Positions 1 to 12,686 of a stretch of 64,000 nucleotides of DNA are shown piece by piece (the stretch's first letter is position 1; each line of letters starts with the position of its first letter). The stretch is taken from NCBI GenBank assembly GCA_945903705.1, contig CAMDOZ010000003.1:642-64641 (forward strand), written 5' to 3'. The translations under genes and the position numbers were made by a program. The stretch is from Fidelibacterota bacterium (GTDB lineage: Bacteria; Pseudomonadota; Alphaproteobacteria; Rhodospirillales; Rhodospirillaceae). The notes beneath the pieces are model-generated. The model saw only the letters and a program-made list of their open reading frames with translations. It was not told the DNA's origin and did not search any database.

Positions 1-597
1 GACTTTCACTGCTCGGTGCTCGATCTCGGCCGCTGGCTCCGGCCGCGGCTGTCGGCCTTTCCAAACCACGGCGCGGTGCTTCAGGCCGATCCCGGGCACC
101 GCGATGAATGCCGGCGCAAATACCTTGCCGCGGCGCCAGGCCGGCGCCTTGTCGGCCTCTCCTGGCGAAGCGTGACACCGGAGATGTCCCACCAGAAAGG
201 CCGACCCCTTGCCGCTTTCCACCCGCTGTTAGCCGCCGAAAAATTAACCTTTATTAATTTACAGTATGGGGATGTGCGCGCTGAAGTAGAGGCGCTCCCA
301 GTCGCGTATAAATCGAATATTATCATTGATTCTGAAATAGATAGCCTCAAAGACCTGGATGGCTTCGCAGCCCAGGTGGCCGCTCTGGATGCCGTCGTGA
401 CCATCAGCAACACGACGGCCCACTTTGCGGGTGCGCTCGGCGTGCCGACCTGCCTGTGTCTCGCGCAGGCCCATAAGCAGCTCTGGTATTGGTTTGCCCG
501 GGGTCAATACAGCCCCTGGTATCGGTCGATTCGGATTCATCGGCGAATCCCCGGAGAGGGATTCGCCGAGATCAAGGAGATCCTTGAGAATTGCTGA
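1..597 (+). CDS. C-terminal part of a glycosyltransferase family 9-like (heptosyltransferase-fold) protein; 5' end lies outside the window
   Basis: Frame 1 is open from base 1 to TGA 595-597. Motif ISNTTAHFAGALGVPTCL resembles the GT9 sugar-nucleotide binding motif (DSGPMHLAAALGxP). No start codon can be assigned in the window. Confidence 0.6.
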   Translation, partial: DFHCSVLDLGRWLRPRLSAFPNHGAVLQADPGHRDECRRKYLAAAPGRRLVGLSWRSVTPEMSHQKGRPLAAFHPLLAAEKLTFINLQYGDVRAEVEALPVAYKSNIIIDSEIDSLKDLDGFAAQVAALDAVVTISNTTAHFAGALGVPTCLCLAQAHKQLWYWFARGQYSPWYRSIRIHRRIPGEGFAEIKEILENC

Positions 598-774: not shown

Positions 775-803
775 TTGACATTAGGGCAGCGCCAGAGTGA
801 TAT
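775..803 (+). promoter_or_regulatory. Candidate sigma70-type promoter for the S/T-rich secreted protein gene
   Basis: Perfect -35 TTGACA at 775-780, then a 17-nt spacer, then a weak -10-like TGATAT at 798-803, about 95 nt upstream of ATG 897. Sequence match only. Confidence 0.3.
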
Positions 804-896
804 GGCGATGCGCTGACGGGCGCCAGAAGTTTGTGGCGGCTCTTTGCCGTTGCGAACTATGAACCAGATCTGAAACCTTAAGGGGATCCCAAAACT

Positions 897-2447
897 ATGA
901 ATAAACAACAGTTATACACCTTTGGCGGCGCACTGCTCGCGTCGACCGCGCTCACGGGAGCGGCGAACGCCCTCACGTGGGGCAAATCTGTCAGCGGGTC
1001 GCTGACCCTCAGCACCAGCGCAATCAGCATCACCAACACGCTGTTCTCGACGACTGCTTCGACGGCCAACACCGTCGTCATCTCGGCGAACGGTGCCAAC
1101 CGCGTCGCTGCGCGCTTCGCCAACGTCTACAACTCCACCACGGTGCCGAGCACCGGCTTCTCCATCGAAATGTCTCCGACGGGCGCCACGTTTGGCAACG
1201 CCAGCTTAGAGTCCGCCAAGTTCCTGATCGTCGGCTCGCATGGCACGACCTTCCAGGCGACGACTTCGGCGTCCACTATGTGCTCCAACGCGGTCGGTTT
1301 CGCCACGCAGTTCGTGCTCAACGGCTGCACCGCGGGTGACGTCACCTCCGGCGGCGGCCTCAACATGTCGATGGCCATCGGCGGCGTGCTGTTCAGCGGC
1401 GTGACTTTCTCCAACGCCTCGGGTCTCGCCACTGCCGGCAGCTCGATCCAGATGACCGGTCGTGTCTACAACACCGCGACCTCGGGCAACTTCGAAGCGG
1501 CCGCTACCGGCAACTCGATCACCTCCGCTGCTCCGCTCGCCATAACGGCGGGCGCTCGTGCGAACGTGACCGTGAGTGCGACCACGACTCCGCTGGCGTT
1601 CACCTCGCTATCGTCCACGAACACCGGGGTTACCACCGCGACGTTGACCATGGATCTCACTTTGATCGTGCTCACCGGCACGGGCACGTACCGCGACGAT
1701 CTGACCACGATCTCGACTGCGGCTAGCGAAATCTCGAGCACCCGCATCACGGTGACCAGCGCCATCCTCTCCAGCGGCGCTGTTCATAACGTGTTCGTGC
1801 AGCACAGTGCGACCTCGCGCGTTAACAGCTTGACGGCTGCTAACTTCTCGGGCGGCACGGTGACGTTCGTTGTCGACAGCGCTACGACCACCTCGTACAT
1901 GGTGTCGATCGCGTTCAACGGCACGACCGCCATCCCGGCCGCTGCCCAGGGCACGACCACCATCACGTTCGGTGTTGGAGCCGGCAACGCCCAGGCGGTC
2001 ACTGGGACCTCGACTGGTGCTGCCGGTACCGCTCAGGGTGGCTTCCGCGCCGAAGTGAATATGTTCGGTGCTTCGAACGCCGCTCCGTACAGTTCGTATC
2101 TGCGCATCCACAACAACGGCGGCGTCGCCGGTACTGTGAGCATCACGATCCGTAACGACGCTCATGACTCGGGCGCGCAGCTCGGTTCAGCGTTCTCCAC
2201 GGCCGCGATCCAGCCGGGTGGAACGATGCAGCTGTCGGCTGCGGAAATGGAAGGCTCTGCGACTTCGACGAAGCTGCCTTCTGGCGGTGCTAACATCGCT
2301 GCGGCGAGCCGCACGGGTGCTTACACCATCCAGGCGACCGGCCCGATCGTCGGTTACGTGCAGCACATCCTGTTCAACGGTTCGTCGGTTGCCGACCTGT
2401 CGGCGTTCCGTAACGGCGGCGTCACGACCAACAACGCGTCTCCGTAA
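897..2447 (+). CDS. Secreted Thr/Ser/Ala/Gly-rich protein of unknown family (S-layer-like or adhesin-like candidate)
   Basis: 516-aa ORF. N-terminal signal peptide MNKQQLYTFGGALLASTALTGAANA with an AxA cleavage site. Very few charged residues. GC3-biased codons. GGGGA purine tract (883-887) about 9 nt upstream of the ATG as a possible weak RBS. Strong terminator immediately downstream. Confidence 0.85.
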   Translation: MNKQQLYTFGGALLASTALTGAANALTWGKSVSGSLTLSTSAISITNTLFSTTASTANTVVISANGANRVAARFANVYNSTTVPSTGFSIEMSPTGATFGNASLESAKFLIVGSHGTTFQATTSASTMCSNAVGFATQFVLNGCTAGDVTSGGGLNMSMAIGGVLFSGVTFSNASGLATAGSSIQMTGRVYNTATSGNFEAAATGNSITSAAPLAITAGARANVTVSATTTPLAFTSLSSTNTGVTTATLTMDLTLIVLTGTGTYRDDLTTISTAASEISSTRITVTSAILSSGAVHNVFVQHSATSRVNSLTAANFSGGTVTFVVDSATTTSYMVSIAFNGTTAIPAAAQGTTTITFGVGAGNAQAVTGTSTGAAGTAQGGFRAEVNMFGASNAAPYSSYLRIHNNGGVAGTVSITIRNDAHDSGAQLGSAFSTAAIQPGGTMQLSAAEMEGSATSTKLPSGGANIAAASRTGAYTIQATGPIVGYVQHILFNGSSVADLSAFRNGGVTTNNASP

Positions 2448-2484
2448 TCGCTACACTAAACCGGTTCGCCGGTTTGGAGATCGA

Positions 2485-2517
2485 GGGAGGGTGAGCAATC
2501 ACCCTCCCTTTTTCTTT
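2485..2517 (+). terminator. Rho-independent terminator after the S/T-rich protein gene
   Basis: Perfect 10-bp stem GGGAGGGTGA (2485-2494) / TCACCCTCCC (2499-2508), GCAA loop, followed by TTTTTCTTT. Confidence 0.85.
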
Positions 2518-2645
2518 GCCGTTTCTTTCCCTGCCGGACCGGCCAGCGGCCAATCTGCGCCCGATTAAACTGACATTCATGTAAGCCGCCGCGCGGGCCG
2601 GTTCGGGCTATGTTCCGGCTGCCGAAGTGAGCGGCAGAGAGGCTT

Positions 2646-3860
2646 ATGCTTCAATCTTTTCAATACGAGGCGGTGGACGGCGCCGGACGCGTTCTGACCG
2701 GACGCCTAGACGCAGCGGGTGAGCGCGACGCGCAACGCGCCCTGGAAGGCCAGGGGCTAACCGTCGTCAGCCTCGCCGGCGCAAAGGCACAAGCCGCAAA
2801 GAGCGGCGTTTTCGGCTTCCAACGCGGGGTGAGCGCGCAGGACCGCATCTTGGCCTTGAAGCAGCTTGCACTGCTGCTAAAGGCGGGCGTCCCGCTTGTG
2901 CAAGGGATCGGCACTCTCAAGAATCAGGCCACCCACCCGATCCTTGCGGAAGCCTTCACCAGCATGGAAAAGCGCCTGCGGACCGGCGACACCTTTTCGA
3001 ACGCCCTTGCCTTAGCGCTGCCCTCGCTCCCCGCTTACGTAAACCAACTGGCCGCTTCCGGCGAAGCCATTGGCCACCTGGGTCAGGCCCTGGACGACGC
3101 CGCGACGCAAATGGCCTACGACCGCCAGGTGCGCCAGGACATTCGCAATGCCTTGACCTATCCGTCGATTCTCATTGTTGCCGGCGTCACCGCCGTCCTC
3201 TTTATCTTCATTGTCGTCGTCCCGCGATTTTCCGCCATGGTCGCGAATGCCAAGGAACCACTCCCGTGGATCTCGGCCGTCGTGATCAAGACAGGCATGT
3301 TCCTCAGCGCCAACAAGCTGCTCCTGTTTGCCGCCGTCGCGGGCGCCGTCTGGTTCGCCTGGTCGGTCTTTAAGAGCCCCAAGCGCCGAAGCCAGATGCA
3401 TGAGGTCCTGGGCGGCCTCCCGCTCATTGGACTCTGGCTGAACGAAGCTGAAGTCGCCCGCTGGGCGTCGATGCTCGGCACGATGCTCGCCAACGGCGTC
3501 GACCTGATCAAAGGCCTGCAGCTTGCCAGGGACGGTGTGAATCTTTCTGGCCTTCGCGACCGCCTCGATCAGGCGACGAAACTGGTCAGATCGGGACAAT
3601 CGCTGTCGTCGGCCATCGCGAGCCAACAGGCCTTCTCCGATACGGCCCTCAGCCTTATCCAGGTCGGAGAGGAATCGGGCGAATTGCCGACGATGCTAAA
3701 GTCGCTCGCCGCTCTCTACGAGGATACGGCGCGCCAGAGAATGAAGCAGTTCCTGCTGTTCCTCGAGCCATGCGCCATTCTGTTCATCGGAATCGTGGTC
3801 GGTGGTATCGTTGCAGCCATTATGTTAGCAATCACATCCGTCAATCAGGTGGCTCTCTAA
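2646..3860 (+). CDS. gspF: Type II secretion system inner-membrane platform protein GspF
   Basis: 404 aa with GspF/PilC-type duplicated domain architecture, three hydrophobic segments and the motif GEESGELPTML. First gene of the gsp operon. Confidence 0.9.
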   Translation: MLQSFQYEAVDGAGRVLTGRLDAAGERDAQRALEGQGLTVVSLAGAKAQAAKSGVFGFQRGVSAQDRILALKQLALLLKAGVPLVQGIGTLKNQATHPILAEAFTSMEKRLRTGDTFSNALALALPSLPAYVNQLAASGEAIGHLGQALDDAATQMAYDRQVRQDIRNALTYPSILIVAGVTAVLFIFIVVVPRFSAMVANAKEPLPWISAVVIKTGMFLSANKLLLFAAVAGAVWFAWSVFKSPKRRSQMHEVLGGLPLIGLWLNEAEVARWASMLGTMLANGVDLIKGLQLARDGVNLSGLRDRLDQATKLVRSGQSLSSAIASQQAFSDTALSLIQVGEESGELPTMLKSLAALYEDTARQRMKQFLLFLEPCAILFIGIVVGGIVAAIMLAITSVNQVAL

Positions 3861-4345
3861 TGCCGAACGCCGTTGAAATCCGCCGCGCCCCTGCGGTGGC
3901 GGCCGCCCTTCAGAAGGGCTTCACCCTCCTCGAAATGCTGGTGGTGCTTGTCATCATCGGCCTTCTGGCCGGCCTTGTCGGTCCTCAGCTGATGGGCCGG
4001 GTCGATACATCCCGCCAGACCGCCGCGGACACCCAGAGTCGAATGTTGAAGAGCGCCCTCGATACGATGCGGCTCGACATCGCCCGCTATCCCACCAAGG
4101 AAGAAGGCCTCGTCATGTTGGTGAACGCGCCCGCGGACGAGCGCGTGGCGCGGAAATGGCGCGGGCCCTATCTCTCCGAATCGTTGCCCGCGGACCCTTG
4201 GGGGAATCCGTACCAATACGAGCCGATTTCATCGACCGTGGTCGCCCTTTACAGCCTCGGCGCCGACGGAGAACCGGGCGGCGAGGACATCAACTCCGAT
4301 GTCGGCCTCCTGCCGAAGTCGGCAGCCGCCAATGCAGCGCCCTAA
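3860..4345 (+). CDS. gspG: Type II secretion major pseudopilin GspG
   Basis: ATG overlaps the gspF stop (TAATG). Prepilin motif KG/FTLLEMLVVLVIIGLLAGLV. GspG-like core: WRGPYL, DPWGNPYQY, LYSLGADGEPGGE. Confidence 0.9.
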   Translation: MPNAVEIRRAPAVAAALQKGFTLLEMLVVLVIIGLLAGLVGPQLMGRVDTSRQTAADTQSRMLKSALDTMRLDIARYPTKEEGLVMLVNAPADERVARKWRGPYLSESLPADPWGNPYQYEPISSTVVALYSLGADGEPGGEDINSDVGLLPKSAAANAAP

Positions 4346-4868
4346 GAAAGCGAGAAACCGGGCGACGGGAGAGCGTGGCTTCACGTTGCTTGAGATTGTC
4401 GTTGTCCTCGTCATCGTTGCGATGACCGGAGCGATCGTCTTTCCGCGACTGACGACGATGGCGGCCAGTTTTGAATTCGCCTCGCAGCGCGATAGTTTTG
4501 AACAGGCTCTGAACGGCTTGACGTATCGGGCCTACCGGGACAATGACGACAAGACCCTGCAAGGGTCTTACAGCGCCGCCGGCCGCGACATCGAGGCAAA
4601 GCAACCGCGTCGTGAGCCCGGCACGACGCTACCGCCGGAAATGCGTGTACGGTCGCTGGCCGCCAATTCGCGCGAGCATCTCCCCCCTGTCACGACAAGC
4701 TATGCGGTGCTTCCCCTGCCTCAAGGATGGGAAATGGTGATCCAAGACCCCATTTACTTCCGCGGATCGGGATATTGCAGCGGCGGTACCGTCGAACTTT
4801 TTGTCGGACGCCTTCAATATACCTACAGGCTGCAGCCACCGCTGTGCCGCGCCGAATTGGTGGAATGA
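4332..4868 (+). CDS. gspH: Minor pseudopilin, GspH-like by position and size
   Basis: Prepilin N-terminal cleavage/methylation motif RG/FTLLEIVVVLVIV. 178 aa. Overlaps the gspG 3' end. An alternative start at 4299 is possible. Confidence 0.7.
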   Translation: MQRPKKARNRATGERGFTLLEIVVVLVIVAMTGAIVFPRLTTMAASFEFASQRDSFEQALNGLTYRAYRDNDDKTLQGSYSAAGRDIEAKQPRREPGTTLPPEMRVRSLAANSREHLPPVTTSYAVLPLPQGWEMVIQDPIYFRGSGYCSGGTVELFVGRLQYTYRLQPPLCRAELVE

Positions 4869-4871
4869 GCG

Positions 4872-5369
4872 ATGGTCCGGAGGCCAACCGCTGGATTCAC
4901 TCTTCTCGAAGCGATCGTCGCACTGACGGTGATGGCGCTTGCTTTGATACCCTTGATCACATTCATCGCGCAGTCGGCCGACCAATTGACTCGCGCGGCG
5001 GAGGTCAACGAGCGCAGCCTGACCGCACAATCAGTGATTGCCCTGATGGAGCCGGTCAATCCCATGGCCGAGCCCGAAGGGAGCCTACCTCTCGACGATG
5101 AAGTCGAGGTGTCCTGGCGCGCCGAAGCGATTGCGCCGCCGTCCGAAGGGGCGATCCTTGGGACTCTGCTGAACGGCTACCGTATAGGATTCTACGGCGT
5201 AACAGTGGCGGTGAGCCGCAACCGAGAGCCGTGGTTCGACTTTACCATGCGTAAGGTAGGCTATCAGAATATGCGATCCGCTGGCGCGTTTTCAGGGGAC
5301 CCGTCAGGGGGCATGGGACCAGGAAGCATGGGACCAGGAGGCATGGGACCAGGAGGCATGGGACCATGA
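4872..5369 (+). CDS. gspI: Minor pseudopilin, GspI-like, with a C-terminal (G/S)MGPG repeat tail
   Basis: Motif AG/FTLLEAIVALTV. 165 aa. Starts 3 nt after the upstream stop. C-terminus is GGMGPGSMGPGGMGPGGMGP. Confidence 0.7.
   Translation: MVRRPTAGFTLLEAIVALTVMALALIPLITFIAQSADQLTRAAEVNERSLTAQSVIALMEPVNPMAEPEGSLPLDDEVEVSWRAEAIAPPSEGAILGTLLNGYRIGFYGVTVAVSRNREPWFDFTMRKVGYQNMRSAGAFSGDPSGGMGPGSMGPGGMGPGGMGP
5311..5366 (+). repeat. 15-bp in-frame tandem repeat (about 3.7 copies) at the 3' end of the GspI-like gene
   Basis: GCATGGGACCAGGA(A/G) repeated at 5311, 5326 and 5341, with a partial copy at 5356. The last copy carries the ATGA stop/start overlap with the next gene. Confidence 0.9.
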
Positions 5370-5977
5370 GCCGCGGCTTTACGCTCCTCGAAGCCCTAGT
5401 GGTGCTCGTCATCACTGCCCTCATCTCCGTCGTGCTCGTCCAGGGGCTGGGTCTTCTTCTGGGGGCGCGCACCAGCGTGCAGAACAGACTCGTCGAGGTC
5501 GACGAAGCCGTTATCGAGCAAAGTCTTTTTTTGGAGCCTTTGCGGGGCGTCGTTCCCGACTATAACGAGCGGCCGCATACTTTCGTAGGCGAAGTCAAAC
5601 GCCTGCATGGGATGACGACGCGCCCCCTGCAAGGGCGCTCGGGAACACCGGTGCCATTTACCCTGACGATCAGCTTCGATCCTTCGCGCGACCAGAGCAC
5701 TCTCATGTATCAGGAAGACAACGCCCCGCCTCTTCCGCTCGGATCTTGGCAAGGCGAGACGGGGACCTTCGCCTACCGCAACATGACGGGCGCGTGGCGG
5801 GAAGCCTGGCCGCCCGAAGACGATCCGCAGGCGCCGCAGACGCCATGGCTGATCCGGTTCGAGCGAGGAACAGGGTTTCCCAAAAACCTGGTCGCGAGCG
5901 TCAACGGCACCCATCAACGTCCCTTGCGCTTTCGCGATACGCCTTTTGGCGTCGACTCCTTTACGGCCCCCCGCTAG
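5366..5977 (+). CDS. gspJ: Minor pseudopilin, GspJ-like
   Basis: Motif MSRG/FTLLEALVVLVITAL. 203 aa. ATGA overlap with the upstream gene. Confidence 0.7.
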   Translation: MSRGFTLLEALVVLVITALISVVLVQGLGLLLGARTSVQNRLVEVDEAVIEQSLFLEPLRGVVPDYNERPHTFVGEVKRLHGMTTRPLQGRSGTPVPFTLTISFDPSRDQSTLMYQEDNAPPLPLGSWQGETGTFAYRNMTGAWREAWPPEDDPQAPQTPWLIRFERGTGFPKNLVASVNGTHQRPLRFRDTPFGVDSFTAPR

Positions 5978-6123: not shown

Positions 6124-7299
6124 TTGCCTGTCGGCGTGCCTTCGGGTTGGGATGAGGTTTCAGGCGTGTCTATTGAGTCCACACAGTCGAGCGGCTCGCC
6201 GCACGCGCAAGCACGAGGGTTCATCCTCGCGCTGACGCTGTGGGTGATTGCGCTGTTTGGAGTCGGTGTCGCTGCCATTAATAGCTGGGTCTCGATGGCA
6301 ACGGAGAACGCCCGCACCTTGCGCTCGCGCGTGGACGATGAAATCGCGCTTTCGAATGCCAAGAGTGAGATCATCTATGCGCTCGCCACGCGCCCCATGA
6401 CTCATCGCGGGCTGGAGGTCGGGTCGGACCTCAAGCGGCCGACCACCGACGACATGTTCATAAGTATGGCGCAGGCAGCCCAGGAAACGTCCGGCTTCAT
6501 TGCATTCGATCGCCGTCCTTATGTGATGGAAAGCAATCCCGACTATGCGATTCAAATTCAGGACGGCCGGGGCCTGGTCAACTTGAATCGGATCCAGCCG
6601 CCGCTCTTGCGCCGCCTATTTGCGTTTTACGATGCGCCGGAAGTCCTCCGGAACCAGCTGCCGGACACGCTACAGGATTGGATCGACGAAGATGACTTGA
6701 CGCGCATTGCCGGCGCGGAACGGTCCGACTATGAACGCCTTCGGCGGGTGCCCCCTAGCGACGCCCGGCTCGTGACGCCCATGGAGGCGCAGAACATCCT
6801 CGGATGGGACGAAATCCCGCAGATGTGGGAGGACGACTTTCGCGCGCCCATCTTCTCGACGTGCGCTGCAGCCGGATTCAATCCGAACACCGCGCCGGAA
6901 GCCTCGCTTCTCGCGCACATGCCGGGCCTTACAGAAGACGGCGCCAAGTTCGTCGTCGATCAGCGCCGGGTGAGTACCTTTCGCCACGCCCGCGAATTCA
7001 TGGACGCGGCGAACGTCACGGTCCCCAACGAAGCCTTCTTCTTCGGCACGTCGCCCGGCAGTTGCATGGTGATCGATTTCGTCAATCGCAATACCGCGGA
7101 ACGTACCCGCGTTTCTCTTACTCTTGTAGATCGCAGTGAAAATCAGCCCTGGCAGGTGGACTATGCTTTCCGAATCCCTTCGCAGTACAGCGGGGCGCTT
7201 GACGGGCTCGATCCGCAGCTCACTTTCCCAGCCCCCGAAACGCTTTATTCAGTCGACGACTCAGCTCTTGCACCTTCCGGGCTCCGACAGGCGCCCTAA
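6124..7299 (+). CDS. gspK: Type II secretion minor pseudopilin GspK
   Basis: N-terminal ARGFILALTLWVIALF (pseudopilin-like, lacking Glu5, as in GspK). GspK-type segments: ERSDYERL, LVTPMEAQNILGW, FNPNTAPEASLLAHMPGL (helix-hairpin-helix-like). The start (TTG 6124 or GTG near 6166) is uncertain. Confidence 0.8.
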   Translation: MPVGVPSGWDEVSGVSIESTQSSGSPHAQARGFILALTLWVIALFGVGVAAINSWVSMATENARTLRSRVDDEIALSNAKSEIIYALATRPMTHRGLEVGSDLKRPTTDDMFISMAQAAQETSGFIAFDRRPYVMESNPDYAIQIQDGRGLVNLNRIQPPLLRRLFAFYDAPEVLRNQLPDTLQDWIDEDDLTRIAGAERSDYERLRRVPPSDARLVTPMEAQNILGWDEIPQMWEDDFRAPIFSTCAAAGFNPNTAPEASLLAHMPGLTEDGAKFVVDQRRVSTFRHAREFMDAANVTVPNEAFFFGTSPGSCMVIDFVNRNTAERTRVSLTLVDRSENQPWQVDYAFRIPSQYSGALDGLDPQLTFPAPETLYSVDDSALAPSGLRQAP

Positions 7300-8281
7300 C
7301 TGGATCCTCAGCCGCCGCTTCGTGCGGCAGAACGTCTTTGAAGTTTCCGAGAGCCTGCCCGAATCGAAACGCAAGCTGGCGCTCTCCCTCTTGGTGCGCA
7401 AGTGGTCGCCGTTTGTGTCGAGCCAATTTGCCGCGCAATGGGTCGGACACCGTGCCTGCGTATATGCCTGGGACGGTGACGCGGTTGCCACAGCCATTAC
7501 AGCGGCCGGCGAAAGCCCCCAACGATGCACCATTTGGCCCGAAACATTTTTCCGCGCACCCCTGCAGGACGGCATCCGTCTTGCACAGATGTGCGATGGC
7601 GTCGAAGGGCAGGTCTGGAGAAGCGGCTTGCTGGTCGCCACGCGTTGGTGGCCGGCCTCTCCAGCACCGCGCGACTGGGCAGGGTTCTTGCGCGCGGCCG
7701 GGATTGACCTCAGCCAAGCTTCGTTCGACGTGCCCGCGGCCGTGGAAAGCGAAATCCTCGCGCTTCCTTGGACGGTCGTCAGCGCTCCCGTTACCGATTT
7801 ATGGAGCCTGCTTCAGAACGAACGCGCCGCCGCAATTGCCGCAACGGTGGTTGCCGTACCATTTCTCTATTACCTGACGCAGTCGGCCGTGCTCCTGGCG
7901 GGAACGATGCGCGTCGAGGCAGCTATTGCCGATCTAACCGCGGCGAACCAGACCATTCGTACCGACCGGACGGCCGCCTTTACCAATCTCGAAAATGTCG
8001 AAACCTACCTTGGCCTTGAAAACTTTCCGTCGCAGTTCGAGACCATGAACGTGATCACCGGCTTGCTTCGCGAAAGCAAAGTCTCGCTGGCGGAATGGAA
8101 CTTCGACACCGGAAATCTGCAACTTGTCATACAAGCCGACCGCCCGCTCGAAGCGCCCTTCTTCATCGAAATGTTCGAAAAGAGCGACCATTTCTCGAAT
8201 GTGAGCGCCACCGTTGGAAATCAACAGCGAGAACTTCGCTTGACCATGTCGGTCGAACCGCGGCAATGGCCGACGTCATGA
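7163..8281 (+). CDS. GspL-like T2SS assembly protein (bitopic: cytoplasmic domain, one TM segment, periplasmic domain)
   Basis: Position after gspK. About 230-aa N-terminal domain, TM segment AAAIAATVVAVPFLYYLTQSAVLLAG, about 120-aa C-terminal domain. AGGTGGA lies before ATG 7163. GTG 7136 and GTG 7322 are alternative starts. Confidence 0.55.
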   Translation: MLSESLRSTAGRLTGSIRSSLSQPPKRFIQSTTQLLHLPGSDRRPNWILSRRFVRQNVFEVSESLPESKRKLALSLLVRKWSPFVSSQFAAQWVGHRACVYAWDGDAVATAITAAGESPQRCTIWPETFFRAPLQDGIRLAQMCDGVEGQVWRSGLLVATRWWPASPAPRDWAGFLRAAGIDLSQASFDVPAAVESEILALPWTVVSAPVTDLWSLLQNERAAAIAATVVAVPFLYYLTQSAVLLAGTMRVEAAIADLTAANQTIRTDRTAAFTNLENVETYLGLENFPSQFETMNVITGLLRESKVSLAEWNFDTGNLQLVIQADRPLEAPFFIEMFEKSDHFSNVSATVGNQQRELRLTMSVEPRQWPTS

Positions 8282-8922
8282 TGAAATCTTTCCCGACGCT
8301 TCAGAAGTTGCTGGACCGCCTGCGCGCCGAGTCGCGCAGTAGGATCGGCCATGACATTGTGCTGACCGATCGCCTCAAGGCCATGCTGTCCGTTGCCGTC
8401 GCGCTCGTCGTGCTTGCGGCTCTGATCGGAATGCACCAGACGGTCTCGTCGTTCGAACGCGATTACGAACGCGTACAGATCGACAAGGCGCGTTTGGAGG
8501 CCCAGATCAAAGCTGGCGGCTGGCAAGAGCGAAAGCAGCAGAGCCAAGTCCTAAAATCTCTCTTGGAGGAACGGCTCTGGGCCGCGCAGACCCCGGGGCT
8601 TGCCGACGCAGGCTTCGAAAGGTGGCTGCGTGACCGCATGTCTCCGCATAAGCTGGAGCCGATCGCGCAGATTCAAGTTCGGCGCGTTCCGCTCGTGCGG
8701 CAGGTGCAACCGGGCGAACAGCCAACCCCGCTCTCAACCGTTCAGCGCATGACGGCGAAGCTGATCCTTCCGTTCGAGAGTGCGGGACTATCGCACTTCT
8801 TGGCAGACATCGCCGAGGCGGATAAGGCCGTGGTTGTCGATCGTTTGATCGTGCGCGCGGGACGAAATGCACGTATCGAGATGGACGTGTCCGCGTTCTA
8901 CCGTTCTTCCGAACGGAATTGA
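8278..8922 (+). CDS. GspM-like T2SS protein (N-terminal TM anchor, periplasmic domain)
   Basis: ATG overlaps the upstream stop (ATGATGA). TM segment LKAMLSVAVALVVLAALIG near the N-terminus. Size and position fit GspM. No strong sequence motif. Confidence 0.55.
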   Translation: MMKSFPTLQKLLDRLRAESRSRIGHDIVLTDRLKAMLSVAVALVVLAALIGMHQTVSSFERDYERVQIDKARLEAQIKAGGWQERKQQSQVLKSLLEERLWAAQTPGLADAGFERWLRDRMSPHKLEPIAQIQVRRVPLVRQVQPGEQPTPLSTVQRMTAKLILPFESAGLSHFLADIAEADKAVVVDRLIVRAGRNARIEMDVSAFYRSSERN

Positions 8923-8934
8923 GGAGCCTCGCGG

Positions 8935-9453
8935 GTGGATCGTATTCTGACGCAGATCTTGGAGAGGCTTGGCGCTCTTCGGCCCTACGCGACCCATCTC
9001 GGCGCGTTGGGAATCGCCATTCTTTTCGGTTTGATCGTCGCGGTATTTAAGGTTTCGGGCAGCCCTCCTGCCGTGGACACGGCTGACCGCTGGCCGTTTC
9101 CGCAATGGGCGCCATTCCGCGCGGGCCCGCAGCGGGAAGTGCTCGCGCGGAGCACCCTATGGGCAGAAGATCCGACAAAAGCAAAAGTGGTCGTCGAAAA
9201 GAAAGTGGAAGGGCCGCCTTGGCGCTTCATCGGTACTTTTCAGGAAGGCGATACACGCATGGCAGTCATCGAACTTGATCAGGGAAAGCGCATTCAGCGC
9301 GTTGGCCCCGGTCAACCGCTGCCGAACGGCGCGTTGATCAAGACGATCGACACGAGTGTCCTCACCTATGACGAGAATGGCATCGAAAAGGCCCTGAAGC
9401 TCTTCGGCCTGACAAAAACTGACAACCTAGCGGCTGGAACTGGAAAGAACTGA
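8935..9453 (+). CDS. GspC/PilP-like secretin-interacting protein (TM anchor plus HR-type beta domain)
   Basis: GTG start. TM segment LGALGIAILFGLIVAVF. C-terminal WRFIGTFQEGDTRMAVIELDQGKRIQRVGPGQPLPNGALIKTIDTSVLTY resembles the GspC HR / PilP fold pattern. Lies immediately upstream of the secretin. Confidence 0.55.
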   Translation: MDRILTQILERLGALRPYATHLGALGIAILFGLIVAVFKVSGSPPAVDTADRWPFPQWAPFRAGPQREVLARSTLWAEDPTKAKVVVEKKVEGPPWRFIGTFQEGDTRMAVIELDQGKRIQRVGPGQPLPNGALIKTIDTSVLTYDENGIEKALKLFGLTKTDNLAAGTGKN

Positions 9454-9457
9454 GCGT

Positions 9458-11593
9458 ATGAAAAAATCATCGCAGAAGCGTCAACTGCTTACCGCTTGCC
9501 TCGCGATCGGAGGAGCCATGGTAATTCTGGCGAGCTGCTCGTCCCGGGTACCTTCGAGAATACCGCCTCCGTTGCCCGTGCCAAAGGCCGCCGATAGGGC
9601 CGGATTTACTGTTGCTGAAGGATCGGGGGAAACCGCGGGCCCCACGGAGATGAAAGTGACGGCTGGGCCTACGGTTCCACTCGGCAAGGGGACGACCGAG
9701 CCACTACTTTCCTCGGCCCTCCCTCACCTCACGGGTGAACCGATCAGTGTCAACTTCGACGGCATTCGCCTGCCCGCCTTCATCAATACTGTATTCGGCG
9801 AACTCTTAAAGCTTACCTTCGAAATCGACAGCACCGTGGCGGCGCGCGATCAAATGGTGACTCTGCGTACGGCCGGACCGCCCCTGTCACGCGACGAATT
9901 CTTTGGTCTCGTAGCCGAAGTTCTCAAGAACTACGGCATCAGCATCGTTTATTCGAACAACGTGTATCGGATCGTGGAGTCCGCAACCGTCAAGAAACCA
10001 ATTCCGCGTATCGTACGCACGCGCACGGCGTCGAATGTGCCGGCTGACTTGCGCCCGATATTCTATTTCCAGACCGTGCGAGCCATTTCAACCCAAACGA
10101 TGATGAGCTGGCTAAACCTGATCATGGGCGATCGGGTTACGCCGATGCCCTTGCTGGGCGCCAGCGGAATTGTACTGCTGGGGAGCCCGTCGGACGTGGA
10201 GGCGGCGATAGAAGTCATGGAAACGCTCGATCAGCCGTTTCTGGCCGGCAGCCAAAGTCTCAAAATTTCGCCGGCGTTCTGGAGCGCGCAGAAACTTGCA
10301 GAGCAACTCGCGAGTATTTTGACGGCGGAGGGTTATAGCATCGCGTTGGGTGGGCAGGCGGCGAGCTCGATCAAGATGCTCCCCGTCGAGGCCTTGAACG
10401 TCATCATCGTCTTCGGAACGTCCTCTGAAAGCCTGCAACATCTCTTGCAGTGGGCCACCGAACTCGATCAGCCAAGTCAAAAAATCGGGACCCAAGGCGT
10501 CTACTATCACCAAGTCCTCAACACGAAGGCGTCGGAAATCGCGACCACGGTCGGCTCAGTCCTGGGCGTGGGCGGCATAGGCGGCGCCCAGCAGCCGGCC
10601 AGCGGCGGAGTGACCTTGGCGACTGACTTACCTGCGACCGCACAACCAACGACGGCCACAGGAGGCGCGCGGGGCTCGCAGCGCCTTATCGTCGATGAGC
10701 CTCGCAACGGGATCCTCTTCGTCGGTACCGCCGAAGAGTTCGCGCAGTTCAAGGCACTTGCCGTCCAAATGGATCGAGCGCCCTTGGAAGTCCTGATCGA
10801 AGCGACGATAGCCGAAGTGACGCTGAGAGACAGTGAAGATCTTGGCATCGTACTGGACTATGACGACGGAAGAGCCACAGCGCCGAATCGAACCGTCGTT
10901 CAAGCCGACGAAGGCGGCATATTCTTCAGCCTCATCCGCGACCGCGCGTCCATCCTGGCCCGCGTCAACGCCCTCGCCGACTTCAATCGCCTCCAGGTCC
11001 TGTCGAGCCCGCGCATCGTCACGAGTAGCGGCAAGCAAGCCGCCATCAACGTGGGAACGCAGGTCCCCATTATCACGGCCCAGGAATCCTCGAGTGGTAC
11101 GGTTGGCGGCAATACGTCGATTCTGCAGTCGATTCAGTACCGGACAACCGGCGTGTCCCTCAGTATCGAGCCCACCATCAATTCGAACCGGCGGGTCGAG
11201 CTGACGGTGCAGCAGGAGGTGAGCGCCGCGCAGGAAAACAACCTGTCGTCCGTCCAGAGTCCGGTGATCATCAACCGTTCGATCAGCACATCGTTATCGC
11301 TGAACGACGGTGAAACCGTCCTGCTGGGCGGCATGATTTCAGAGAACTTCAGCGCAGGCCATACAGGAGTTCCATATTTGAAGGACATCCCACTGCTCGG
11401 CAATCTGTTCAAGTCGGGTTCGGAATCTGTCAATCGAACGGAATTGATCGTTCTGATTACGCCTTATATTATCGACGGACCCGAAGGAGCGCGGCAAGTA
11501 CGCGACGCCTTCCGCGGCAAACTTGGTGAATGGGCGCAACCGCTGGCCGAACCGGCGCCGGCCGCGGTCCCCGTCGCTTCACCTCAACAATAG
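9458..11593 (+). CDS. gspD: Type II secretion secretin GspD with a lipoprotein signal peptide (liposecretin-like)
   Basis: 711 aa with N0/N1-type domains. Secretin signature: VPYLKDIPLLGNLFK, RTELIVLITPYII. N-terminal lipobox ILAS-C at about residues 23-27. Confidence 0.92.
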   Translation: MKKSSQKRQLLTACLAIGGAMVILASCSSRVPSRIPPPLPVPKAADRAGFTVAEGSGETAGPTEMKVTAGPTVPLGKGTTEPLLSSALPHLTGEPISVNFDGIRLPAFINTVFGELLKLTFEIDSTVAARDQMVTLRTAGPPLSRDEFFGLVAEVLKNYGISIVYSNNVYRIVESATVKKPIPRIVRTRTASNVPADLRPIFYFQTVRAISTQTMMSWLNLIMGDRVTPMPLLGASGIVLLGSPSDVEAAIEVMETLDQPFLAGSQSLKISPAFWSAQKLAEQLASILTAEGYSIALGGQAASSIKMLPVEALNVIIVFGTSSESLQHLLQWATELDQPSQKIGTQGVYYHQVLNTKASEIATTVGSVLGVGGIGGAQQPASGGVTLATDLPATAQPTTATGGARGSQRLIVDEPRNGILFVGTAEEFAQFKALAVQMDRAPLEVLIEATIAEVTLRDSEDLGIVLDYDDGRATAPNRTVVQADEGGIFFSLIRDRASILARVNALADFNRLQVLSSPRIVTSSGKQAAINVGTQVPIITAQESSSGTVGGNTSILQSIQYRTTGVSLSIEPTINSNRRVELTVQQEVSAAQENNLSSVQSPVIINRSISTSLSLNDGETVLLGGMISENFSAGHTGVPYLKDIPLLGNLFKSGSESVNRTELIVLITPYIIDGPEGARQVRDAFRGKLGEWAQPLAEPAPAAVPVASPQQ

Positions 11594-11600
11594 GTTACAG

Positions 11601-12686
11601 ATGTTGAATTTACTTTCTCGCACGCTTCTTGCATTCGCCTTGCTTGTCGTATCCGCGGCTCATGGAGCGGAAGTCGCCCCGTTGCCGCGATTTACGCCAG
11701 ACGATGTGGAACAACTCACCATCGCCCAGCTGGACACGCGCACCGCAACGGGAGATTTGAAGGCCCAAGCCGAGCTTGGAGCGCGCTACGCGCGCGGCGC
11801 CGGGGTCACGGTCGACCTAAAGAAGGCGGTGTCGCTGTTCGAAGCTGGCGCAAAGAGAAACGGAGCGAACGCGCAATACTATCTTGGCACGGCCTACTCT
11901 ATGGGCGTCGGCGTGAAGCAGGATCCGAAGCAAGCGGCACGGTGGTTTGGGAAAGCCGCCGCGCAAGGGCATGCCGGCGCGCAATACTCGCTCGGCGTCA
12001 TGATGGCTACGGGAGAAGGCGGCCTTAAGGCCGACCCCAAGAAAGCGGCTGATCACGTCCTGAAGTCCGCCGAACAGGGTTTCGTCCTGGCCGCCTTCAG
12101 GATGGCTCAGCTTCATATAGCGGGCTTGGGAGTCGCACGAGACACTGAACGAGCGGCCGATTGGTATCGGCGCATCCTCAAGACCCAAGACCACCCTCCC
12201 TCGACCGCCGGCCTCGTCGTCCTCATCGAAACGAGAGAGGCGACATGGCAGCCTGGGGATCCCATTAACCAGCCCCCACCCTTGGCTAAGGAGGAGGCTC
12301 CCGCACAGGTCGCCGAAATCGCGCCCCCCGTTATGACGGGGCCCATCACGGCGGCTGCCCCCGACACGACCTTAAGTCTCTTGCCCGACGAGCAGGAGAC
12401 CATGACGTCATTCAAGACAGAACAAGGGCCGACGATCGAGGCGAGGACGAGAGCGGGCGCCCTTACGCTTTTCAGCACCTCGGACAAACCGCTTTCTTGC
12501 CAGATCGGCGTCACGTTCAGTTACCTTGAGAAGGACGGCGTGAGAACGCCGGGCACTTTCCTCTGCTTTCAGGCGGCCATGCGGGTCGGCCAGAAGGTGC
12601 AGGTTTGCGACGTCGTGAATCGCAACTTCGTGCAAACAAAAGTCGAAAAGATTGAGCTCACGAAATGCAGCACGCTCACGCCGTAA
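11601..12686 (+). CDS. Secreted Sel1-repeat (TPR-like) protein with a C-terminal domain of unknown family
   Basis: Signal peptide MLNLLSRTLLAFALLVVSAAHGA. At least four Sel1-type repeats (AQAELGARYARGAGV, AQYYLGTAYSMGVGV, AQYSLGVMMATGEGG, AAFRMAQLHIAGLGV). Starts 8 nt after the gspD stop. Confidence 0.85.
   Translation: MLNLLSRTLLAFALLVVSAAHGAEVAPLPRFTPDDVEQLTIAQLDTRTATGDLKAQAELGARYARGAGVTVDLKKAVSLFEAGAKRNGANAQYYLGTAYSMGVGVKQDPKQAARWFGKAAAQGHAGAQYSLGVMMATGEGGLKADPKKAADHVLKSAEQGFVLAAFRMAQLHIAGLGVARDTERAADWYRRILKTQDHPPSTAGLVVLIETREATWQPGDPINQPPPLAKEEAPAQVAEIAPPVMTGPITAAAPDTTLSLLPDEQETMTSFKTEQGPTIEARTRAGALTLFSTSDKPLSCQIGVTFSYLEKDGVRTPGTFLCFQAAMRVGQKVQVCDVVNRNFVQTKVEKIELTKCSTLTP

What the first reader, a model, noticed from the sequence alone, without database searches (positions are those of the whole stretch)
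897..2447. 516-aa secreted protein of extreme Thr/Ser/Ala/Gly composition with no recognisable domain
By my manual count only about 31 of 516 residues are D/E/K/R. There is a single Cys pair spaced 15 residues apart (MCSNAVGFATQFVLNGC). I count nine N-x-S/T sequons. Many short beta-strand-like alternating stretches occur (TVSITIRND, TVTFVVDS, ITVTSAIL). The gene has a clean AxA signal peptidase site, its own about 300-bp upstream region with a consensus -35 box, strongly GC3-biased codons and a perfect 10-bp-stem terminator. That arrangement fits an abundantly expressed monocistronic structural gene. The composition is typical of S-layer, fimbrial or beta-helical adhesin proteins, but I cannot place it in a named family.
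Basis: partly seen in the sequence, partly recalled or inferred. Interest (0 to 1): 0.7.

Follow-up and report, generated by a model that had tools for sequence, protein, structure and literature searches.

The report
Likely surface-coat protein with own secretion system

Summary
ORF 897-2447 encodes a 516-aa protein with an A-N-A signal-peptidase site, 55% Thr/Ser/Ala/Gly and only 31 charged residues. It has one Cys pair, no Pfam, NCBIfam or PDB sequence match, a conserved promoter and a strong terminator. The nine N-x-S/T sequons are what its composition predicts by chance.

The context adds a great deal. In nine independent loci (31-53% identity) the gene lies directly upstream of a type II secretion cluster (gspF-G-H-I-J-K-L-M-C-D plus a Sel1 protein). 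It also lies directly downstream of several cytoplasmic TPR proteins with distant GT9-like (heptosyltransferase-like) domains; four fully annotated loci carry 4-6 such paralogues plus a GT8-like gene.

It is nearly the fastest-evolving gene of the cluster, yet its promoter, 5' UTR and terminator are almost invariant. It has the strongest codon bias among the plausible genes of the window. AlphaFold2 predicts a string of beta-sandwich domains. The conserved C-terminal domain of about 105 aa is an unannotated module. It recurs in four copies in hundreds of secreted enzymes; all five with a source organism name come from MAGs labelled Rhodospirillaceae (one labelled Marinimicrobia).

Best reading: an S-layer-type surface protein exported by Sec and a dedicated T2SS, probably O-glycosylated. 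This resembles Aeromonas VapA, Slr4 and NpdA in function, but no homology to Slr4 or NpdA was detected. All function is inferred; every host is uncultured.

The parts
1..597 (+). 3' end of a TPR + GT9-like (GT-B) putative cytoplasmic protein glycosyltransferase, cut by the window edge. It is the last gene of a paralogue array; the four fully annotated loci carry 4-6 paralogues.
   Evidence: - In L006 the full protein carries N-terminal TPRs.
- The C-terminal domain profile's best PDB hit is heptosyltransferase II 1psw, weak at E=0.2, through two collinear motifs.
- JGI names several homologues 'ADP-heptose:LPS heptosyltransferase'.
- Six of nine homologues give sub-threshold Glyco_transf_9 hits in the same region.
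- The paralogues have no signal peptide.
775..803 (+). Promoter: -35 TTGACA (775-780), 17-nt spacer, -10 TGATAT (798-803).
   Evidence: Conserved in 12 loci whose proteins are only 31-53% identical. It is not called by the generic sigma-70 scan.
809..896 (+). 5' UTR of about 88 nt. It holds an invariant 5'-terminal hairpin GCGCUGACGGGCGC (810-823), a hairpin of variable sequence (828-858), and the invariant block GAACCAGATCTGAAACCTTAAGGGGATCCCA (861-891) that contains the Shine-Dalgarno AGGGGA (881-886).
   Evidence: Alignment and consensus fold. Single-sequence fold is -31.1 kcal/mol with z = -2.7. No Rfam family matches. The transcription start is inferred, not measured.
897..971 (+). Sec signal peptide of 25 aa, with cleavage after A-N-A.
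   Evidence: Read from the sequence. It is the most conserved 20-aa stretch of the family (0.77). Conservation is at protein level, because synonymous sites vary.
972..2447 (+). Mature protein of about 491 aa (plus the stop codon): roughly four beta-sandwich domains, with a Cys129-Cys144 pair. The variable regions are residues 61-160, 241-280 and 361-380.
   Evidence: AF2 model with pLDDT 84.7 and pTM 0.74, all-beta. Foldseek gives only generic tandem Ig-like matches. Conservation profile.
2034..2411 (+). Conserved C-terminal beta-sandwich domain (residues ~380-505). Signature: S-x-L-R-[IF]-x-N-x-G ... G-[YF]-x-Q-H. It belongs to an unannotated domain family.
   Evidence: - It recurs as four copies in many secreted proteins of 470-1700 aa.
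- It is absent from Pfam and NCBIfam.
- AF2 of the domain alone gives pLDDT 87.6.
- The best PDB fold match is only TM1070/ASRT, E=5e-3 and TM ~0.5.
2458..2520 (+). Small hairpin (2458-2475) followed by an intrinsic terminator, GAGGGAGGGTGAGCAATCACCCTCCCTTTTTCTTTGCC (2483-2520).
   Evidence: Terminator scan. The terminator sequence is nearly identical in loci at 36-53% protein identity.
2567..2587 (+). Conserved box AAACTGACATTCATGTAAGCC ahead of gspF. It is a candidate control site for the T2SS operon; its function is unknown.
   Evidence: Conserved in the window and in L001, L007, L009, L010, L011 and L012.
2646..3860 (+). gspF (T2SS inner-membrane platform protein).
   Evidence: Pfam T2SSF, E=2.7e-51.
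3860..5977 (+). gspG major pseudopilin (3860-4345) and three minor pseudopilins (4299-4868, 4872-5369, 5366-5977).
   Evidence: Pfam T2SSG at 2.6e-32 and N_methyl motifs.
6124..9453 (+). gspK (about 6166-7299), an L-like gene (7268-8281), an M-like gene (8266-8922), and a short GspC/PilP-like protein with one transmembrane helix (8935-9453).
   Evidence: Pfam T2SSK_1st and T2SSK. The orthologue in L005 has a weak T2SSM_b hit. Weak HofP hit and translation. The L, M and C assignments rest on position and are inferred.
9458..11593 (+). gspD secretin.
   Evidence: Pfam Secretin at 2.1e-46, Secretin_N, and GspD N0.
11601..12686 (+). Periplasmic Sel1-repeat protein, the conserved last gene of the cluster. 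It may be a secretin accessory or pilotin-like factor (inferred).
   Evidence: Pfam Sel1 at 7.2e-28. It has a signal peptide. It is present in L001, L003, L005 and L006.

Best explanation
The gene encodes the dedicated cargo of the adjacent type II secretion system. Most likely it is the subunit of a glycosylated S-layer-type cell-surface coat in an uncultured Rhodospirillaceae lineage.

**Proposed path:**
1. A strong, conserved promoter drives a monocistronic mRNA. A 5'-terminal hairpin and a strong terminator probably stabilise it.
2. The Ser/Thr-rich precursor is O-glycosylated in the cytoplasm by the neighbouring TPR + GT9-like transferases and the GT8-like enzyme. The TPR part would bind the substrate, as in FlmG.
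3. Sec exports the precursor, and the signal peptide is cut after A-N-A.
4. The beta-sandwich domains fold in the periplasm and Cys129-Cys144 forms a disulfide.
5. The GspC-M/D machine pushes the folded protein through the secretin.
6. The conserved C-terminal domain holds it at the cell surface or docks it to partners, while the variable N-terminal and middle domains face outward.

**Shown:** gene anatomy, family, synteny, evolutionary rates, predicted fold and domain recurrence.

**Inferred:** secretion by this particular T2SS, glycosylation, surface retention and lattice formation.
For: **Synteny.** In the window/L006, L001, L002, L003, L005, L007, L009, L010 and L012 (31-53% identity) the gene sits directly upstream of gspF-G-H-I-J-K-L-M-C-D(-Sel1). 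It sits directly downstream of TPR-GT paralogues. This holds even for the weakest homologue found (E=4e-9).

**Precedent.** The S-layer genes vapA, slr4 and npdA also adjoin T2SS clusters. NpdA likewise has a 25-aa signal peptide, a mature size of about 52 kDa and no known domains (PMC10765051).

**Expression signals.**
- Conserved promoter, structured UTR and terminator.
- Lowest Nc among the plausible genes of the window.
- AT-rich first codons.

**Surface-antigen-like evolution.**
- The target is 45-53% identical where gspF is 81-90% and gspD 63-72%. Its non-coding flanks are nearly invariant.
- MAG assemblies break inside the gene at the junction between variable and conserved parts (L013/L015 and L014/L016).

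**Fold.** A string of beta-sandwich domains.

**Glycosylation.**
- TPR + GT9-like enzymes without signal peptides.
- A GT8-like gene with a DxD-type motif.
- FlmG as a precedent for this architecture (PMC7591256).

**C-terminal domain.** It is shared with secreted enzymes. All five that carry a source organism name come from MAGs, four labelled Rhodospirillaceae and one Marinimicrobia.
Against: - There is no experimental datum of any kind; every host is an uncultured MAG.
- No sequence homology to Slr4 or NpdA was detected, and no specific structural match to any S-layer protein.
- No GspE ATPase gene lies in the 64-kb window or in the +/-10 kb of the other loci. The secretion system is therefore incomplete as seen.
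- Every glycosyltransferase assignment is below curated thresholds.
- 6% charged residues is lower than in NpdA (10.9%) or Slr4 (15.9%), so the composition is not simply 'typical S-layer'.
- Gene adjacency does not prove that this T2SS exports this protein.
Confidence: 0.55

Rival explanations
1. It is a soluble or loosely attached T2SS exoprotein, such as a biofilm-matrix protein or adhesin. It is released or coats surfaces but does not form a crystalline S-layer.
For: - The T2SS linkage is equally compatible with any dedicated cargo.
- Foldseek's best matches are adhesins and biofilm proteins built from tandem Ig-like domains: PrgB, Bap and antigen I/II.
Against: - Those structural matches are generic (TM <= 0.26).
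- Strong expression signals, a single conserved gene per locus, a size near 50 kDa and a dedicated secretion cluster match the S-layer precedents more closely.
- There are no adhesin-type repeats and no Ca-binding motifs. D+E is only 15 residues.
Confidence: 0.25
2. It is an accessory or scaffold protein of a surface-display system. Its main role is to present or dock the family of secreted enzymes that carry four copies of the same C-terminal domain, rather than to form a protective coat.
For: The C-terminal domain recurs four times in secreted proteins with VCBS/FG-GAP, Vgb-lyase-like, reprolysin, GH114, DUF4185 and beta-helix heads. Four of the five with a source organism name come from MAGs labelled Rhodospirillaceae.
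Against: - Co-occurrence in the same genomes was not shown.
- No cassette protein is encoded in the 64-kb window or in the fetched flanks.
- Nothing shows that the domain binds itself, rather than LPS or the secretion machine.
Confidence: 0.12
3. The gene is not the cargo of the neighbouring T2SS and is not glycosylated. The gene order is only inherited linkage, and the protein is a periplasmic or outer-membrane-associated structural protein.
For: No gspE was seen nearby. All glycosyltransferase calls are sub-threshold.
Against: - The gene order is kept down to about 31-35% protein identity and through a rearrangement of the cluster in L002. That is hard to explain without functional coupling.
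- There is no beta-barrel and no lipobox. The C-terminus (…NNASP) lacks the aromatic end typical of outer-membrane proteins (sequence).
Confidence: 0.08

Closest known systems
NpdA S-layer protein of Delftia / Paracidovorax (Beta- and Gammaproteobacteria), PMC10765051
   Same: - A 25-aa Sec signal peptide and a mature size of about 50 kDa.
- No curated domains.
- T/S/A/G-rich, with few Cys.
- The gene adjoins a gsp (T2SS) cluster whose arrangement is conserved across genera.
   Different: - No detectable homology: hhalign aligns only the signal peptides (a weak test, since NpdA was a single sequence).
- NpdA has more charged residues (10.9% against 6%).
- No TPR-glycosyltransferase array is reported for npdA; the paper has no 'TPR' or 'glycosyl' term.
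- The host class differs (Alphaproteobacteria here).
Slr4 S-layer protein of Pseudoalteromonas tunicata (Pfam PF19526), PMC7821379
   Same: - Sec signal peptide and a size of about 57 kDa.
- It lies next to a conserved T2SS cluster proposed to be dedicated to it.
- Relatives are widespread in metagenomes, often on contigs barely longer than the gene.
   Different: - The target has no PF19526 hit.
- Profile-profile comparison with an Slr4 family alignment gives probability 0.2%.
- Slr4 has 15.9% charged residues.
- The slr4 gene lies downstream of its T2SS cluster, which includes gspE; here the gene lies upstream and gspE is absent.
Aeromonas VapA / AhsA A-layer proteins with dedicated T2SS components (as summarised in PMC10765051 and PMC7821379)
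   Same: An S-layer subunit of about 50 kDa with a Sec signal peptide. Export needs a dedicated type II-like system encoded beside the gene.
   Different: Sequence and fold similarity were not tested because no VapA sequence was available. The host is a gammaproteobacterium.
FlmG, the TPR + GT-B flagellin O-glycosyltransferase of Caulobacter (PMC7591256); also autotransporter heptosyltransferases such as TibC and AAH (own knowledge)
   Same: - The neighbouring enzymes have the same two-part build: N-terminal TPR and C-terminal GT-B-like domain, both cytoplasmic.
- The heptosyltransferase family shows that GT9-like enzymes can O-glycosylate a Sec-exported beta-rich surface protein before export.
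   Different: - The substrate here is a Sec/T2SS protein, not flagellin or an autotransporter.
- Four to six paralogues act, rather than one enzyme.
- Direct homology to FlmG or TibC was not tested, and the sugar is unknown.

Membership tests
Slr4 family (Pfam PF19526) | Significant match to the PF19526 profile or to an Slr4 family alignment | tested here: not met
   No Pfam hit at E<=10. hhalign of A1 against the Slr4 family alignment A6 gives probability 0.2%, E=0.26.
Slr4 family (Pfam PF19526) | Gene adjacent to a conserved T2SS cluster | tested here: met
   This is a shared property, not evidence of homology.
NpdA family | Sequence homology to NpdA (WP_011797163) | tested here: not met
   hhalign of A1 against the NpdA sequence taken from the paper's supplement aligns only the signal peptide, E=0.11. 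The test is weak because NpdA was a single sequence.
Aeromonas VapA/AhsA A-layer proteins | Sequence or fold homology to VapA | not tested
No Pfam family of any kind matched.
S-layer proteins (functional class) | Self-assembles into a two-dimensional paracrystalline lattice covering the cell | not testable with these tools
   Needs electron microscopy or in vitro assembly. No multimer prediction tool was available.
S-layer proteins (functional class) | Among the most abundant cell proteins, with strong expression signals | tested here: inconclusive
   Only indirect evidence: lowest Nc in the window, and a conserved promoter, stabilising-type UTR and terminator. There are no expression data.
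Type II secretion substrates | N-terminal Sec or Tat signal peptide, and folding in the periplasm before export | tested here: met
   Signal peptide with an A-N-A site (sequence). Compact beta-sandwich domains and a Cys pair.
Type II secretion substrates | Export depends on the T2SS | not testable with these tools
   Only conserved adjacency is shown. gspE was not found nearby.
RsaA-type S-layer proteins (type I secreted, RTX) | No N-terminal signal peptide, a C-terminal T1SS signal, Ca-binding RTX repeats, and adjacent ABC transporter, MFP and OMP genes | tested here: not met
   The protein has a cleavable signal peptide. There is no RTX Pfam hit and D+E is only 15. The neighbours are T2SS genes.
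Chaperone-usher fimbrial subunits | Pilin domain of about 15-20 kDa with donor-strand complementation, and adjacent chaperone and usher genes | tested here: not met
   The protein is 516 aa with multiple domains. No usher or chaperone was found among the neighbours. The CfaB and Saf Foldseek hits are generic (TM ~0.2).
GT9 glycosyltransferases (for the upstream TPR proteins) | Match to Glyco_transf_9 above threshold, with a GT-B fold | tested here: inconclusive
   - The window fragment has no Pfam hit.
- The family profile's best PDB hit is heptosyltransferase II at E=0.2, through two collinear motifs.
- Six of nine homologues hit Glyco_transf_9 at E 9e-4 to 0.48, all below the cut-off.
- JGI labels some of them heptosyltransferase.
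- The fold was not modelled.

The most novel reading that the evidence does not exclude
A lineage-wide surface-display system in uncultured Rhodospirillaceae.

- A previously undescribed ~105-aa beta-sandwich domain (S-x-LR[IF]-x-N-x-G … G[YF]-x-QH) acts as a common cell-surface anchoring or docking module. One copy sits on a hypervariable, nearly uncharged coat protein. Four copies sit on dozens of secreted enzymes: proteases, glycosidases and propeller proteins.
- The coat protein is multiply O-glycosylated in the cytoplasm by an array of 4-6 specialised TPR-GT9-like transferases. It is then exported through Sec and its own T2SS.

This would be a Gram-negative functional counterpart of the SLH-domain / S-layer-associated-protein arrangement, built from unrelated parts.
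Probability: 0.2. Interest if true: 0.8.

Novelty: new variant of a known kind. Interest (0 to 1): 0.58.

Why it matters
S-layers are major determinants of how bacteria meet phages, predators and surfaces. Very few Gram-negative S-layer families are known, and none is reported for this uncultured alphaproteobacterial group.

If the reading is right, this locus adds three things:
- A fourth, unrelated family of S-layer proteins linked to a T2SS.
- A candidate multi-enzyme cytoplasmic glycosylation route for a Sec/T2SS cargo.
- An unannotated domain shared with hundreds of secreted enzymes. That domain could be the key to how these cells hold proteins on their surface.

The pattern of a hypervariable coding sequence between almost invariant control regions also gives a simple genomic signature for finding such coat genes in metagenomes. 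It may explain why assemblies break at them.

Tried and rejected
**Searches that found nothing:**
- Pfam, NCBIfam and PDB sequence searches of the protein and its family profile.
- Rfam on 600-2700; only chance-level hits.

**Structural comparisons:**
- Foldseek of the full model gave only generic tandem Ig-like matches.
- Foldseek of the C-terminal domain gave no match below E=1e-3.

**Homology to known S-layer proteins:**
- NpdA rejected at the sensitivity available.
- Slr4 rejected at the sensitivity available. By eye, the motif around LRxxNxG resembles Slr4's ILRHTNAG, and hhalign picked the same spot, but without significance.

**Ideas dropped:**
- N-glycosylation inferred from the nine sequons. 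The count equals the chance expectation.
- Reading the many ~1.6-kb contigs as metatranscriptome transcripts. L017 starts exactly at the invariant UTR block. Both contigs examined end 3 nt after the stop codon rather than at the terminator. Assembly-graph breaks at k-mers shared by co-occurring strains are the likelier cause. The sample identifiers could not be traced in the literature.
- RNA-level constraint on the signal-peptide codons. Synonymous sites vary.

**Other negative results:**
- A GspE-type Walker A motif was sought in all six frames of the window and loci; none was found.
- The first genome scan, using the wide alignment, failed for lack of a conserved stretch. It worked with the narrower alignment.
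Full report
**1. The observation**

The ORF at 897-2447 (+) is real and encodes 516 aa.
- Only 31 residues are D/E/K/R. The two Cys are at 129 and 144. There are nine N-x-S/T sequons, and GC3 is 0.81.
- The N-terminus, MNKQQLYTFGGALLASTALTGAANA|LT, has the build of a Sec signal peptide with A-N-A at -3/-1. This is read from the sequence.
- A 12-pair hairpin followed by a T-run lies at 2483-2520, and TTGACA lies at 775-780.
- Pfam gives nothing even at E<=10. NCBIfam gives only a chance-level hit. A family profile finds nothing in the PDB.

The sequon count needs correcting. With 33 Asn and 28.5% Ser+Thr, about nine sequons are expected by chance.

**2. The family**

A first search found 80 relatives, nearly all 470-525 aa (a few are partial). 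Those with a source name are called 'hypothetical', and none has a Pfam domain.
- A scan of species-representative genomes found ten loci. All are in uncultured MAGs, and eight are labelled Rhodospirillaceae.
- The extreme composition is a trait of the whole family: mean T/S/A/G 53.7% and D/E/K/R 6.4%. Housekeeping genes of the window show 26-46% and 13-29%.
- Conservation is uneven. The signal peptide, residues 161-180 (FSGVTFxNASGLATAG) and the last ~130 residues are conserved. Residues 61-160, 241-280 and 361-380 vary freely.

**3. Structure**

With a 51-sequence alignment, AlphaFold2 gives a confident all-beta model (pLDDT 84.7, pTM 0.74).
- Foldseek against the PDB returns only generic multi-domain Ig-like or beta-sandwich proteins, with TM <= 0.26. 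These include PrgB, CFA/I pilins, Bap, antigen I/II, integrin legs and, weakly, the S-layer protein SbsC.
- The protein is therefore a chain of roughly four beta-sandwich domains. It is not a beta-helix and not a beta-barrel.

**4. Genomic context**

This is the main new finding. Directly downstream lie these genes:
- gspF and gspG
- three minor pseudopilins
- gspK
- L-like and M-like genes
- a short GspC/PilP-like protein
- the secretin gspD
- a periplasmic Sel1-repeat protein

Directly upstream is the end of a TPR protein. The same order is kept in every locus that could be examined: L001, L002, L003, L005, L006, L007, L009, L010 and L012.
- The order is an array of TPR proteins, then this gene, then the T2SS cluster. 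The four fully annotated loci (L001, L002, L003, L005) show 4-6 TPR paralogues of 530-1014 aa and one 224-227-aa protein.
- It holds even for the weakest homologue (E=4e-9).
- It survives a rearrangement in L002 that moved gspK-D to the other side.

No GspE-type ATPase motif occurs anywhere in the 64-kb window or in the fetched flanks. The motor must be encoded elsewhere. The rest of the window is housekeeping.

**5. The upstream genes**

The TPR paralogues have no signal peptide. They share a conserved C-terminal domain of about 330 aa. Four lines of evidence bear on that domain:
- Its profile's best PDB match is ADP-heptose:LPS heptosyltransferase II (GT9). The match is weak (E=0.2) but runs through two collinear motifs.
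- JGI labels several homologues as heptosyltransferase.
- Six of nine homologues give sub-threshold Glyco_transf_9 hits at the same profile positions.
- The 224-aa protein has a weak GT8 hit and a DxD-type motif.

The build of N-terminal TPR plus C-terminal GT-B matches FlmG, the cytoplasmic flagellin O-glycosyltransferase whose TPR part binds the substrate (PMC7591256). From my own knowledge, GT9-like autotransporter heptosyltransferases (TibC, AAH) glycosylate Sec-exported surface proteins before export. I therefore infer that the Ser/Thr-rich protein is O-glycosylated in the cytoplasm. No step of this is shown.

**6. Evolutionary pattern**

Against the same loci, the target is 45-53% identical where gspF is 81-90%, gspG 77-85% and gspD 63-72%. 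Only the Sel1 protein diverges comparably.

The non-coding flanks are almost invariant:
- the promoter, TTGACA-N17-TGATAT
- a 5'-terminal hairpin, GCGCUGACGGGCGC
- a second hairpin whose sequence varies
- a 31-nt block containing the Shine-Dalgarno sequence
- the terminator
- a box, AAACTGACATTCATGTAAGCC, ahead of gspF

The window's UTR folds to -31 kcal/mol, z = -2.7. No Rfam family matches. The gene has the lowest effective number of codons among the plausible genes of the window: 35.6 against 39-48.

A fast-changing protein under rigidly kept, strong expression signals is what one expects of an abundant, exposed surface antigen. Two MAG assemblies break inside the gene at the junction of variable and conserved parts. 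That points to strain-level variation.

**7. The C-terminal domain**

An exhaustive profile search found 981 representative proteins at E<=1e-3.
- Besides full-length relatives, many are secreted proteins of 470-1700 aa with four copies of the last ~105 residues.
- The copies are combined with FG-GAP/VCBS, Vgb-lyase-like propellers, reprolysin-type proteases, InlB B-repeats, GH114, DUF4185 or beta-helix regions.
- Some proteins are just a signal peptide plus four copies.
- Of the five that carry an organism name, four come from MAGs labelled Rhodospirillaceae and one from a MAG labelled Marinimicrobia.
- The domain is absent from Pfam and NCBIfam.
- Modelled alone, it is a confident eight-strand beta-sandwich (pLDDT 87.6) with no convincing PDB neighbour. 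The best is TM1070/ASRT at E=5e-3 and TM ~0.5.

I take it to be a shared surface-anchoring or docking module. This is inference.

**8. Comparison with known systems**

S-layer genes beside T2SS clusters are documented for Aeromonas vapA, P. tunicata slr4 and npdA (PMC10765051 and PMC7821379). NpdA also has a 25-aa signal peptide, a mature size of about 52 kDa and no known domains.

Using sequences taken from the papers' supplements, I tested homology:
- Family profile against NpdA: nothing beyond the signal peptide.
- Against Slr4: E=0.46.
- Against a 24-member Slr4 family alignment: probability 0.2%.
- Slr4 relatives carry PF19526; the target does not.

The protein therefore works like these S-layer proteins in gene organisation and general properties. 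It is not a detectable member of either family. VapA was not tested.

**9. Verdict**

The most likely reading (about 0.55) is an S-layer-type surface protein exported by Sec and a dedicated T2SS, and probably glycosylated.
- The narrower claim, that it is the dedicated cargo of the adjacent T2SS, I would put near 0.8.
- The glycosylation step I would put near 0.5.
- The rivals are a non-lattice matrix protein or adhesin, a scaffold for the cassette enzymes, and mere inherited linkage.

It is a new family and a new variant of a known arrangement. Three features are unusual: the conserved glycosyltransferase-like array, the near absence of charge, and the recurrent undescribed domain. Everything functional awaits experiment.

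Noticed in passing
window 2567-2587 and about 2622-2629: An almost invariant box, AAACTGACATTCATGTAAGCC, lies between the terminator and gspF. A second conserved TATGTTCC lies about 23 nt after TGTAAG. The spacing does not fit a sigma-70 promoter. It may be a regulator site or an alternative-sigma promoter for the T2SS operon.
   Followed up: partly
window 2034-2411; proteins P0251-P0340: The C-terminal ~105-aa domain is an unannotated module. In hundreds of secreted multi-domain proteins it occurs in four copies with an A-B-A-B pattern. A few proteins (P0289, P0302, P0308) consist only of a signal peptide plus the four copies.
   Followed up: partly
window 1-64000 and loci L001-L012: No GspE-type ATPase (Walker A G[PS]TGSGK[ST]T) is present in the window or in the fetched loci, although gspC-M and gspD are all present. 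A prepilin peptidase was not looked for. The motor of this T2SS must be encoded elsewhere or shared.
   Followed up: partly
L017 (1589 nt), L018 (1596 nt); contig lengths: About a quarter of the relatives sit on contigs only 30-140 nt longer than the gene. L017 starts exactly at the invariant UTR block, L018 starts in the first UTR hairpin, and both end exactly 3 nt after the stop codon. The 5' ends fit assembly breaks at shared k-mers. The identical 3' ends are unexplained. The Slr4 family shows the same excess of gene-sized contigs.
   Followed up: partly
L013/L015 and L014/L016: In two MAGs the gene is split across two contig ends, at about residue 385-420. This is where the variable part meets the conserved C-terminal domain. 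It suggests co-assembled strains with different variable regions.
   Followed up: no
L011 (CANJEU010000031.1): A contig binned as 'Candidatus Marinimicrobia' carries a 47%-identical orthologue with the same promoter, UTR and terminator as the Rhodospirillaceae loci. It is probably mis-binned.
   Followed up: no
window 27689-29392 (+): A 567-aa PMT_2/PMT (GT-C, ArnT-like) membrane glycosyltransferase lies 25 kb away. Such enzymes act on the periplasmic side, so it could offer an alternative route to glycosylating a Ser/Thr-rich exported protein, or it may simply modify lipid A.
   Followed up: no
window 897-971: The signal peptide, with core G-A-L-L-A-S-T-A-L, is the most conserved 20-aa stretch of the protein (0.77 identity to the window protein across 51 sequences). 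Synonymous sites vary freely. The constraint is therefore on the peptide, which is unusual for a signal sequence.
   Followed up: partly
P0078: One full-length relative comes from a eukaryote transcriptome assembly (a TRINITY contig in EukProt). It presumably derives from an associated bacterium, which hints at an abundant mRNA.
   Followed up: no
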